Source: Candidatus Dependentiae bacterium Noda2021 (lineage in GTDB: Bacteria; Babelota; Babeliae; Babelales; Vermiphilaceae). Taken from it: 64,000 nt of DNA. The notes beneath the pieces are model-generated. The model made no database searches. It saw nothing but the letters and a program-made list of their open reading frames with translations, and was not told where the DNA came from. A program made the position numbers and the translations under genes. The first letter of the stretch is position 1. The number at the start of each line of letters is the position of its first letter. Location of the stretch: the NCBI GenBank assembly GCA_020886235.1, contig AP025250.1, positions 1,054,715-1,118,714 on the forward strand, given 5' to 3'. Below are positions 34,180 to 34,950 of the stretch, piece by piece.

Positions 34180-34950
34180 TTAAGCTTGTGCTGTATTTTT
34201 GTGTTGTAATTGACCCAACAAGTAAAGATCTAAAAATCCAAATCCCGACTTGCACAAAATGGGCAAAATTACAAAAGATAGCGTTGTTGCGTAATCGCTA
34301 ATCAAGCCAAAACCTGGTGTTCCGAGAATCCAAATTGCTGGATAAGCTATCCAAAAAATAACAAGGTACGATGCTAGTAAACGATATTTTGCATACAGTT
34401 CATAGCCACTTTGTCTTGCAATTGTCATTAATGGGCCCCAGATCATGTAAAAAACTCCCAGCATGGCAACGTTACCCAGTATAAAAAAAGTAAGTAGCGC
34501 ATTTTGAGAATATGAAAGTTGAGCCAAGACACCAGTTATGATAGTAACTGCTTGGAAGCCCATAACCGCCCAGATTAAATCCCAGCGTTTTTCTTGCAGG
34601 TAATACATAGCAGATAATCCAAGCGCTAAAACAATTAATGGTGTTGAAATAACCCAGTCAGCATACCATGCATAGTCGCGCAACGGAGTGTTAAATAAAA
34701 TATTGAGGTATATCAATCCAGACCAACAAACTATGGCAAAGTGAATCATATAAAAATAAAGCGGAACACGAGTACCTTGAGAGCGGCGCATTAATATAAA
34801 ACCAAGCGCGCTCAAAGCCATCACTCCTATGTAGAAAATAATGAGACTCTGCTTTGAGATGCCCATCACTGCTTGCAATGAAGATTCTGCCTTGAGGCAA
34901 AAGGCAGATAAACTACTGAGCCCAGCTAATACAAATGAAAATATTTTCAT
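34180..34950 (-). CDS. Microbial (type-1) rhodopsin homologue with atypical counterion residues
   Basis: 256 aa. Seven hydrophobic helices after a signal-like N-terminus. Helix C DYAWYADWVISTPLIVLAL vs bacteriorhodopsin YWARYADWLFTTPLLLLDL. Helix F FWIAYPAIWILG vs LWSAYPVVWLIG. Helix G TLSFVILPILCKSGFGFL vs TLLFMVLDVSAKVGFGLI, with the Schiff-base Lys conserved. Confidence 0.7.
   Translation of the reverse strand: MKIFSFVLAGLSSLSAFCLKAESSLQAVMGISKQSLIIFYIGVMALSALGFILMRRSQGTRVPLYFYMIHFAIVCWSGLIYLNILFNTPLRDYAWYADWVISTPLIVLALGLSAMYYLQEKRWDLIWAVMGFQAVTIITGVLAQLSYSQNALLTFFILGNVAMLGVFYMIWGPLMTIARQSGYELYAKYRLLASYLVIFWIAYPAIWILGTPGFGLISDYATTLSFVILPILCKSGFGFLDLYLLGQLQHKNTAQA

What the first reader, a model, noticed from the sequence alone, without database searches (positions are those of the whole stretch)
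34180..34950. Type-1 rhodopsin homologue with atypical counterion residues and no retinal/carotenoid genes nearby
The 256-aa minus-strand protein aligns by eye across helices C, F and G to bacteriorhodopsin.
- Helix C: YADW is retained, with the Asp85-equivalent present.
- Helix F: the WxxYPxxWxxG box is conserved.
- Helix G: the DxxxK Lys (retinal Schiff base) is conserved.

Three residues differ from the usual pattern:
- The near-universal Arg82 position is Trp (AWYADW).
- The Asp212 position is Pro (ILPILCK), as in xenorhodopsin/Anabaena-sensory-rhodopsin-type proteins.
- The Asp96 position is Ala.

The gene sits among secreted hypotheticals, beside a GNAT and an esterase, in what otherwise looks like a host-associated bacterium. 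I see no blh/crt genes in the window. The FAD amine-oxidase-like gene at 38321 is only a remote CrtI-fold relative. A rhodopsin lacking the Arg of the counterion complex would be unusual in function (sensory, inward pump or non-pumping) and in lineage.
Basis: partly seen in the sequence, partly recalled or inferred. Interest (0 to 1): 0.8.

Follow-up and report, generated by a model that had tools for sequence, protein, structure and literature searches.

The report
Xenorhodopsin in an amoeba-infecting Dependentiae bacterium
The gene is a real retinal-binding rhodopsin whose "odd" residues are the published signature of xenorhodopsins (light-driven inward proton pumps); the notable part is its host, an obligate intracellular amoeba parasite with no retinal-synthesis genes in the window.

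Summary
ORF 34180..34950 (-) encodes a 256-aa type-1 rhodopsin (Pfam PF01036 E=1.2e-37; AF2 pLDDT 92.7; seven TM helices; Lys234 in helix G).

The residues called atypical are not new. Trp95, Asp98, Ser102, Ala109, Pro230 and Lys234 are the published "WDSAPK" motif of the Nanosalina xenorhodopsin NsXeR (PDB 6EYU), a proven light-driven inward H+ pump. The His70-Asp241 pair matches the NsXeR His48-Asp220 Schiff-base proton acceptor. All 12 core NsXeR residues I compared are identical. The top 15 structural matches are all xenorhodopsin-family entries.

The window is from Candidatus Dependentiae bacterium Noda2021, an isolate that infects Vermamoeba, where the gene is annotated "hypothetical". 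It looks like a resident gene under selection:
- good RBS, a terminator-like hairpin after the stop, and GC equal to the window;
- 13-kb synteny with a 61%-identical relative;
- dN/dS 0.10 over the mature region.

Its closest relatives, unlike the archaeal ones, carry a cleavable-looking signal peptide. No retinal or carotenoid genes and no ASR-type transducer are in the 64 kb.

Best reading: an inward proton pump that uses scavenged retinal. This is a new member of a known kind in an unexpected lifestyle. No paper in the searchable library links Dependentiae with a rhodopsin.

The parts
34180..34950 (-). Xenorhodopsin gene (256 aa; locus Noda2021_11320, annotated 'hypothetical protein')
   Evidence: ORF. 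PF01036 E=1.2e-37. Best PDB sequence hit is 6eyu_A at E=2.5e-45. AF2 seven-TM model, pLDDT 92.7. Foldseek top 15 are all BcXeR, ASR or NsXeR entries. A 100% identical protein, P0001, comes from Ca. Dependentiae bacterium Noda2021.
34888..34950 (-). Codons 1-21: Sec-type signal-peptide-like N-terminal extension (MKIFSFVLAGLSSLSAFCLKA|ESS), absent from archaeal xenorhodopsins
   Evidence: NsXeR residue 10 aligns with residue 30, so the mature N-terminus would be colinear with NsXeR Met1. Comparable hydrophobic extensions, most ending in Ala, occur only in the closest homologs P0002, P0003, P0006, P0007, P0011 and P0050. pLDDT is about 73 here against above 90 for the bundle. dN/dS is 0.39 here against 0.10 in the mature part. 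Cleavage is inferred, not tested.
34957..34962 (-). Shine-Dalgarno AAGGAG, with a 6-nt spacer before the ATG at 34950
   Evidence: Read directly from the sequence. No comparable site precedes the internal Met29.
34666..34668 (-). Codon of Trp95 (BR Arg82 / NsXeR Trp73 position)
   Evidence: Alignment. Role of W73 in NsXeR from PMC5609834.
34249..34251 (-). Codon of Lys234, the predicted retinal Schiff-base lysine in helix G
   Evidence: Alignment to BR K216, NsXeR K213 and ASR K210. Helix G spans residues 219-255 in the model.
34134..34168 (-). Terminator-like hairpin plus T-run, starting 12 nt after the stop codon
   Evidence: Consensus scan: 10-bp stem with 6 GC pairs, then TGGCTTTTTT. This is a pattern match only.
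35047..35268 (-). Upstream co-oriented 73-aa secreted Cys-rich protein, a conserved neighbour with no demonstrated functional link
   Evidence: Own RBS. 62% identical to the 74-aa ORF in the same position in L001, and a 73-aa ORF holds that position in L013. It is absent next to more distant xenorhodopsins. No Pfam hit.

Best explanation
The gene encodes an NsXeR-type xenorhodopsin: a seven-helix membrane protein that binds all-trans retinal at Lys234 and uses light to move protons from outside (periplasm) into the cytoplasm.

Inferred mechanism, by homology to NsXeR:
- Light isomerises the retinal.
- The Schiff base releases its proton towards the cytoplasmic His70-Asp241 pair.
- The Schiff base is re-protonated from the extracellular side through Asp98.
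- Trp95 (in place of the usual Arg) and Pro230 (in place of the usual Asp) shape this reversed pathway.

The protein is probably made with a cleavable signal peptide and inserted N-terminus-out in the inner membrane of the Dependentiae cell. The window holds no retinal-synthesis genes, so the chromophore most likely comes from outside, from the host, its prey or the environment.

Shown here: family and subfamily membership, fold, conservation of every core functional residue, purifying selection, and residency in the genome.

Inferred: retinal binding, pumping direction, signal-peptide cleavage, and retinal scavenging.

The physiological purpose is unknown, as it is for all natural inward pumps. 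My candidates are cytoplasmic pH homeostasis of the extracellular stage in sunlit alkaline pond water, or light-dependent depolarisation or acidification acting as a signal.
For: Family and fold:
- PF01036 E=1.2e-37.
- The best solved relative by sequence is the inward pump NsXeR (6eyu, E=2.5e-45), then ASR and BcXeR.
- AF2 pLDDT 92.7. The Foldseek top 15 are all xenorhodopsin-family structures, with target TM-score 0.85-0.95, rmsd 1.4-2.2 A, and 40% identity to 6eyu_A.

Residues:
- WDSAPK motif = W95, D98, S102, A109, P230, K234. H70 and D241 = NsXeR H48 and D220.
- S77, Y81, Q144 and C233 = NsXeR S55, Y59, Q122 and C212, so 12 of 12 core residues are identical.
- Mutagenesis in NsXeR shows W73, P209, D220, H48, D76 and S55 are each required for pumping or folding (PMC5609834).

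Phylogeny:
- The His-type clade containing NsXeR and this protein has 89% NJ bootstrap against the ASR-type sequences.

Functional, resident gene:
- RBS and terminator-like hairpin.
- GC 38.8% against 38.5% for the window.
- 11 syntenic ortholog pairs with L001 at 43-85% identity, with the rhodopsin at 61%.
- dN/dS = 0.10 over codons 30-149 against L013.

No sensory partner:
- No ASRT or other transducer family was found in the window ORFs.

Precedent for rhodopsins without a retinal pathway in host-dependent bacteria:
- Saccharibacteria (PMC9296517).
Against: - No experiment exists. Direction of transport cannot be read from sequence with certainty, and ASR, in the same family, does not pump.
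- The NsXeR residues proposed for final proton release (His94, Glu228) are Tyr116 and Gln249 here. They also vary within the archaeal clade.
- Only 64 kb of a 1.22-Mb genome could be inspected, so a retinal-forming enzyme elsewhere is not excluded. Conversely, a supply of retinal inside an amoeba is unproven.
- In Dependentiae, ATP is thought to come from the host and membrane potential from ATP synthase running in reverse (Chromulinavorax, PMC6561590). An inward pump would therefore work against the cell's own energisation, and its benefit is unclear.
- In the closest environmental relative (L013) the gene appears interrupted after about 450 nt. This may be an assembly chimera.
Confidence: 0.75

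Rival explanations
1. It is a photosensor of the Anabaena-sensory-rhodopsin kind. It binds retinal but signals to a partner protein or by slow photochromism, and does not transport protons productively.
For: ASR is the second-best solved relative (E about 1e-33; TM 0.94) and shares Pro at BR-212 and Asp at ASR-217. An inward pump looks counter-productive for an ATP-importing parasite. A conserved small secreted protein lies immediately upstream.
Against: The protein has the pump-type residues that ASR lacks: His70 (ASR Ala40), Trp95 (ASR Arg72) and Ala109 (ASR Ser86). ASR-type sequences form a separate group. No ASRT-family transducer is in the window. The upstream 73-aa protein is secreted, Cys-rich and absent next to more distant homologs. 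No neighbour is conserved across subclades.
Confidence: 0.1
2. It works without retinal, or not at all. Either it is an apo-opsin kept for a light-independent membrane role (for example lipid scrambling, as recently proposed for opsins in genomes lacking retinal synthesis), or it is a decaying relic of an old transfer.
For: No retinal or carotenoid genes lie in 64 kb. The organism is an obligate intracellular parasite with a small genome (PMC8812299). A preprint proposes scramblase activity for opsins (bioRxiv 2025.08.17.670764). One relative (P0028) has lost Lys, Asp and His, and L013 may be truncated.
Against: The Schiff-base Lys and every residue of the proton pathway and retinal pocket are retained across about 35 homologs spanning 40-60% identity. 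dN/dS of 0.10 argues against decay. That pattern of conservation, including the His-Asp pair, is specific to photochemistry and proton transfer and is not needed for a scaffold role. Other host-dependent bacteria use exogenous retinal (PMC9296517).
Confidence: 0.1
3. It is a light-driven transporter of different direction or substrate, such as an outward H+ pump or another ion, despite its xenorhodopsin sequence.
For: Direction can be altered by few mutations in this family: ASR D217E becomes an inward transporter (PDB 4tl3 title; PMC13585137). The cytoplasmic exit residues differ from NsXeR.
Against: There is no carboxylate at the BR Asp96 donor position, no Arg82, and no Asp212. There are no DTD/DTE, NDQ or TSA motifs. 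All 12 core NsXeR residues are identical.
Confidence: 0.05

Closest known systems
NsXeR, xenorhodopsin of Nanosalina (PDB 6EYU; Shevchenko et al. 2017, PMC5609834)
   Same: Best sequence match among solved structures (E=2.5e-45, 40% identity). Identical WDSAPK motif, identical His-Asp cytoplasmic acceptor pair, and identical S55, Y59, Q122 and C212 equivalents. Same fold (target TM-score 0.88, rmsd 1.5 A)..
   Different: The host is a bacterium (Dependentiae) from a freshwater pond and amoeba, not a hypersaline nanohaloarchaeon. This protein carries a 21-residue signal-peptide-like extension. Helix F has Trp200 where NsXeR has Phe174. The proposed NsXeR exit pair His94/Glu228 is Tyr/Gln. The F-G loop is shorter.
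BcXeR, Bacillus coahuilensis xenorhodopsin (PDB 7ZMY and related entries)
   Same: Top structural match (target TM-score 0.92-0.94, rmsd 1.4-1.9 A, 35-36% identity). It is a bacterial inward H+ pump of the same family.
   Different: Lower sequence similarity than NsXeR (E about 5e-31 against 2.5e-45). Its residue motif was not examined here.
Anabaena sensory rhodopsin (PDB 1XIO)
   Same: Same family, with Pro at BR-212, Asp at ASR-217 and no Asp96-type donor.
   Different: ASR keeps Arg at BR-82, and has Ala instead of His in helix B and Ser at BR-96. It is described as not being an inward pump (PMC13585137). From my own knowledge, not checked here, ASR pairs with a soluble transducer (ASRT). 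No ASRT-family gene was found in this window.
Saccharibacteria (CPR) type-1 rhodopsins relying on host retinal (PMC9296517), and bacterial schizorhodopsins of Patescibacteria (bioRxiv 10.1101/2025.10.15.682728)
   Same: An ecological analogy: reduced-genome, host-dependent bacteria carrying rhodopsins without an evident retinal pathway. In the second case these are inward proton pumps in symbiotic lineages.
   Different: They belong to different rhodopsin families. Their hosts are bacteria (episymbiosis), not an intracellular life in amoebae.

Membership tests
Microbial (type-1) rhodopsin, Pfam PF01036 | Significant match to the family profile above the curated cutoff | tested here: met
   130 bits against a cutoff of 24.6, E=1.2e-37, covering profile positions 4-221 of 224.
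Microbial (type-1) rhodopsin, Pfam PF01036 | Seven-transmembrane-helix retinylidene fold | tested here: met
   AF2 pLDDT 92.7 with seven helices after the N-terminal extension. Foldseek finds 326 PDB matches at E<=1e-3, and all 50 listed are microbial rhodopsins.
Microbial (type-1) rhodopsin, Pfam PF01036 | Schiff-base lysine in helix G and aromatic retinal pocket (BR W86, W182, Y185, P186, W189) | tested here: met
   K234 lies in helix 219-255. W99, W200, Y203, P204 and W207 are all present.
Microbial (type-1) rhodopsin, Pfam PF01036 | Covalent binding of retinal and visible absorbance | not testable with these tools
   Needs expression with all-trans retinal.
Xenorhodopsin family (XeR/ASR clade) | Pro at BR Asp212, non-carboxylate at BR Asp96, Asp at the ASR-217 / NsXeR-220 position | tested here: met
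   P230, A109 and D241. The motif is defined in PMC5609834.
Xenorhodopsin family (XeR/ASR clade) | Closest characterised relatives by sequence, structure and tree are XeRs | tested here: met
   PDB ranking is 6eyu, then ASR, then BcXeR, with all others well behind. The Foldseek top 15 are all XeR-family entries. NJ places it with NsXeR in the His-type clade at 89% bootstrap; deeper branching is poorly resolved.
NsXeR-type subgroup (WDSAPK plus His-Asp acceptor) | Trp (or another non-Arg residue) at BR Arg82, His at NsXeR-48, and the full WDSAPK motif | tested here: met
   W95, D98, S102, A109, P230, K234, H70 and D241. 12 of 12 core residues are identical to NsXeR.
NsXeR-type subgroup (WDSAPK plus His-Asp acceptor) | Light-driven inward H+ transport | not testable with these tools
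   Needs a pH-electrode or electrophysiology assay.
ASR-type sensory rhodopsin | Arg retained at BR-82, no helix-B His, and an ASRT transducer gene alongside | tested here: not met
   W95 and H70. No ASRT family hit among the window ORFs.
Outward H+ pumps (BR DTD, PR DTE) | Carboxylate donor at BR-96, Arg82, Asp212 | tested here: not met
   A109, W95 and P230.

The most novel reading that the evidence does not exclude
Signal-peptide-bearing xenorhodopsins are a recurrent, selected trait of protist-infecting intracellular bacteria. They occur in Dependentiae such as Noda2021 and perhaps in a Holosporales-like lineage.

In this reading they are loaded with retinal taken from the host or its prey. 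They give these ATP-scavenging parasites a light-dependent step in their life cycle. Examples would be proton import for pH homeostasis of the energy-starved extracellular stage in sunlit alkaline water, or light-dependent alkalinisation of the host vacuole.

Noda2021 grows in Vermamoeba co-culture, so it would be a native system in which the unknown physiological role of inward proton pumps could be tested.
Probability: 0.25. Interest if true: 0.7.

Novelty: new member of a known kind. Interest (0 to 1): 0.45.

Why it matters
Natural inward proton pumps are a physiological puzzle. A 2026 paper states that their role is still unknown and that they have never been studied in native cells (PMC13585137).

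Here one sits in a cultured organism whose energy budget is unusually simple. By analogy with another Dependentiae, ATP comes from the host and membrane potential from a reversed ATP synthase. It is also a lifestyle, intracellular in an amoeba, where light-driven bioenergetics would not be expected.

No paper in the searchable library connects Dependentiae, Babeliales or TM6 with a rhodopsin, and the GenBank annotation is "hypothetical protein". The practical gains are these:
- a corrected annotation;
- a new freshwater bacterial branch of XeRs with signal peptides, possibly useful as optogenetic tools;
- a testable host-retinal-dependence hypothesis.

It does not change what is known about the rhodopsin mechanism.

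Tried and rejected
1. Flavoenzyme as a hidden carotenoid or retinal enzyme. FAD oxidoreductase genes lie within about 7 kb of the rhodopsin in four contexts, which suggested a link. They turned out to be three unrelated enzymes.
   - The window and L001 carry an unassigned PF01593 protein. Its best curated hit is HpnE at 49 bits against a cutoff of 283, and its only PDB match is the N-terminal FAD motif of LkcE.
   - L008 carries a polyamine-oxidase/LSD-like enzyme.
   - L009 and L014 carry a D-amino-acid-oxidase-like enzyme.
   - The window and L008 proteins are 20% identical.
   - Rejected.

2. Conserved partner gene. Neighbours differ between subclades, and only close syntenic relatives share the 73-aa ORF. 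Neighbours include the 73-aa secreted protein, GNAT, TspO, ATP synthase, ankyrins and hypotheticals. No operon partner is supported.

3. Alternative start at Met29, which would remove the N-terminal extension. There is no RBS there, a strong AAGGAG precedes Met1, and homologs keep an extension.

4. Recent horizontal acquisition or a genomic island. GC equals the surroundings, and the gene lies in a 13-kb syntenic block with divergence typical of its neighbours.

5. Finding the gene in species-representative genomes. The scan of 185,579 GTDB representatives returned only three Nanohaloarchaea. Noda2021 itself is evidently not in that collection, since its own sequence matches both search patterns but was not returned.

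6. An exact look-up of the window protein in the contig index returned nothing. The rest of the Noda2021 genome could therefore not be inspected for blh, CCO or crt genes.

7. A first alignment of 30 sequences was too diverse for the locus search.

Full report

Yes. The ORF lies at 34180..34950 on the minus strand, 256 aa, ATG start. It matches Pfam PF01036 (Bac_rhodopsin) at E=1.2e-37, 130 bits against a curated cutoff of 24.6, over residues 34-245. NCBIfam has no model for it.

- Asp98 aligns with BR Asp85.
- Trp95 aligns with BR Arg82.
- Ala109 aligns with BR Asp96.
- Helix F carries W200, Y203, P204 and W207.
- Pro230 aligns with BR Asp212.
- Lys234 aligns with BR Lys216.

An AlphaFold2 model built on 30 homologs has mean pLDDT 92.7 and pTM 0.85. 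It shows an N-terminal helix (residues 2-29, pLDDT about 73) followed by seven helices. Lys234 lies inside the last one, residues 219-255.

**2. What is it?**

The best solved relative by sequence is 6eyu_A (E=2.5e-45), followed by ASR (1xio, 2m3g) and the entries labelled xenorhodopsin (7zmy, 7zng). Archaerhodopsins and BR follow only at E of 1e-21 to 1e-15. 6EYU is the "inward H(+) pump xenorhodopsin" (title), that is NsXeR of Nanosalina (PMC5609834).

That paper makes three relevant statements:
- In almost all nanohaloarchaeal xenorhodopsins the BR Arg82 position is Trp, Asp212 is Pro, and the Asp85 and Asp96 positions are Asp and Ala. This gives the WDSAPK motif.
- His48 and Asp220 form the cytoplasmic acceptor of the Schiff-base proton.
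- W73A abolishes pumping, and W73R, D76 and S55 substitutions abolish folding. P209G strongly reduces pumping, D220N abolishes pumping, and H48 substitutions prevent retinal binding.

The window protein has W95, D98, S102, A109, P230 and K234, plus H70 and D241, at exactly these positions. It also matches NsXeR S55, Y59, Q122 and C212 (S77, Y81, Q144, C233). That makes 12 of 12 core residues identical.

By structure, the 15 best PDB matches are all BcXeR, ASR or NsXeR entries. Target-normalised TM-scores are 0.85-0.95 and rmsd is 1.4-2.2 A.

In a motif table of 52 family members, sequences with the helix-B His carry W, Y, F, L or I at the Arg82 position. The exceptions are one His-type sequence with Arg (P0051) and one degenerate Lys-less copy (P0028). 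The ASR-like sequences, with Ala instead of His, keep Arg. An NJ tree with 300 bootstraps puts the His-type sequences, including NsXeR and this protein, together at 89%. Relationships among subclades inside that group are weakly supported, at 26-38%.

The "atypical counterion residues" are therefore the diagnostic signature of a known, experimentally characterised subfamily.

**3. Whose gene is it, and is it a working resident gene?**

A 100%-identical protein is [quoted passage not shown] on a 1,222,284-bp contig. That strain was isolated from pond mud by infecting Vermamoeba vermiformis. It multiplies inside the amoeba and has 38.3% GC and 1,287 ORFs (PMC8812299). The window fits this picture, with 38.5% GC, ankyrin-repeat proteins and type II secretion / type IV pilus genes.

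Evidence that the gene is functional and resident:
- An AAGGAG Shine-Dalgarno sits 6 nt before the ATG, with nothing comparable before the internal Met29.
- A GC-rich hairpin followed by a T-run starts 12 nt after the stop.
- Its GC (38.8%) equals that of the window.
- It lies in a 13-kb block syntenic with a metagenomic contig, L001. Eleven ortholog pairs are 43-85% identical, and the rhodopsin at 61% falls mid-range.
- Against an 86%-identical environmental relative (L013), dN/dS is 0.10 over codons 30-149 and 0.39 over the N-terminal extension.

It is thus an old, vertically kept gene under purifying selection, not a recent arrival or a relic.

**4.

Residues 1-21 (MKIFSFVLAGLSSLSAFCLKA|ESS) look like a Sec signal peptide. 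NsXeR residue 10 aligns with residue 30 here, so cleavage after Ala21 would give a mature protein colinear with NsXeR.

Comparable hydrophobic extensions, most ending in Ala before polar residues, are present in the closest homologs P0002, P0003, P0006, P0007, P0011 and P0050. They are absent from the nanohaloarchaeal sequences. Cleavage is an inference, because no signal-peptide predictor was available.

**5. Distribution**

An exhaustive phmmer run over 1.84 billion cluster representatives found only 329 hits at E<=1e-3 and 11 at E<=1e-30, so this is a small subfamily.

In 185,579 species-representative genomes, the two conserved peptide patterns recovered only three Nanohaloarchaea. All bacterial relatives come from metagenome contigs. 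The pointers to their origin are these:
- L001-L003 and L013 are syntenic with Noda2021.
- L017 carries an MgtE fragment 57% identical to the window's.
- L010-L012 carry a PRPP synthase. Above the drop to 33% identity, its only organism-named relatives are Babeliales, Dependentiae or TM6, at 35-42% identity.
- L007 and L008 are ankyrin-rich.
- An L008 amidase is closest to those of Odyssella, Holosporales and Paramecium assemblies. This hints at a second protist-endosymbiont lineage, but on a single gene only.

No paper in the searchable library links Dependentiae, Babeliales or TM6 with a rhodopsin.

**6. Chromophore supply and partners**

A Pfam scan of all 60 non-overlapping window ORFs of at least 120 aa found none of the following:
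- Blh/BCD;
- RPE65-type oxygenase;
- lycopene cyclase;
- phytoene synthase;
- polyprenyl synthase;
- ASRT;
- TspO.

The amine-oxidase-family gene at 38321..39568 is far below all curated carotenoid-enzyme cutoffs. Flavoenzyme genes near other xenorhodopsins are unrelated enzymes. No neighbour is conserved across subclades.

The rest of the genome could not be inspected. Retinal scavenging has a precedent in host-dependent Saccharibacteria (PMC9296517).

**7. Mechanism and rivals**

My best explanation, at confidence 0.75, is a light-driven inward proton pump working as in NsXeR and loaded with exogenous retinal.

The rivals are these:
- An ASR-like sensor (0.10). It is disfavoured by the pump-type His, Trp and Ala residues and the absence of a transducer.
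- A retinal-independent or decaying opsin (0.10). It is disfavoured by conservation of the Lys and the whole proton path, and by dN/dS of 0.10.
- A pump of other direction or substrate (0.05).

The physiological benefit is unresolved. In another Dependentiae, ATP is imported and membrane potential is thought to be made by ATP synthase running in reverse (PMC6561590). An inward pump would oppose that. The role of inward pumps is an acknowledged open question, and they have not been studied in native cells (PMC13585137).

**8. Verdict**

This is a new member of a known kind, an NsXeR-type xenorhodopsin. It is notable for three things:
- its host phylum and intracellular lifestyle;
- its signal peptide;
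- the apparent lack of local chromophore genes.

Interest is moderate, at 0.45.

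Noticed in passing
window 43051..44187 (-): The mgsA/rarA-like AAA+ gene is interrupted by an in-frame TAG at 43450-43452. 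This gives two ORFs of 245 and 132 aa. One continuous tblastn match is 77% identical to the intact 388-aa ortholog in L001. It could be a pseudogene, a sequencing error or read-through.
   Followed up: partly
L013 1431..1988 (Logan ERR2736890); corresponds to window 34023..34126 and 34495..34950: In the closest environmental relative (86% nt identity), homology to the rhodopsin stops after about 450 nt. The contig then continues into the 3' end of the esterase-like gene in inverted orientation. This is either a real inversion truncating the rhodopsin or a chimeric short-read assembly.
   Followed up: partly
L010 2541..3029, L011, L012; L008 4435..4950: A TspO/MBR (tryptophan-rich sensory protein) gene lies directly upstream of the xenorhodopsin, co-oriented, in L010-L012. 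Another lies 5 kb upstream in the unrelated contig L008. The two TspO proteins are 32% identical. None is in the window.
   Followed up: partly
L014 7404..10794 and L015: In this relative the xenorhodopsin is convergent with, and 160 nt from, the F-type ATP synthase alpha and delta genes. The two ORFs beyond them were not scanned.
   Followed up: no
P0028 (241 aa, metagenomic homolog): This member of the same subfamily has lost the Schiff-base Lys (Asn), the Asp85-equivalent (Asn), the helix-B His (Tyr), the Pro (Thr) and the cytoplasmic Asp (Tyr). It still scores as PF01036, so it is a retinal-free derivative.
   Followed up: partly
P0066 (1177 aa, from the representative search): An ASR-like opsin domain (residues 5-221) lacks the Schiff-base Lys (Thr) and the Pro (Ser). 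It is fused N-terminally to a complete P-type cation ATPase. The single keyword search I ran found no description of such a fusion.
   Followed up: partly
window 33285..34172 (+), 37229..38017 (-), 39571..39975 (-): Three genes interrupt the otherwise conserved synteny with L001: the esterase-like gene (GFSAG motif seen by eye, no Pfam hit at E<=0.01), a TylF-type O-methyltransferase, and a DUF3175 gene. The esterase-like gene sits between the rhodopsin and the GNAT gene that directly follows it in L001.
   Followed up: partly
window 59568..62140 (+): The type II secretion secretin appears as two ORFs overlapping by 4 nt: 440 aa with N0 and Secretin_N domains, and 417 aa with the Secretin domain. 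It could be a split gene or a frameshift.
   Followed up: no
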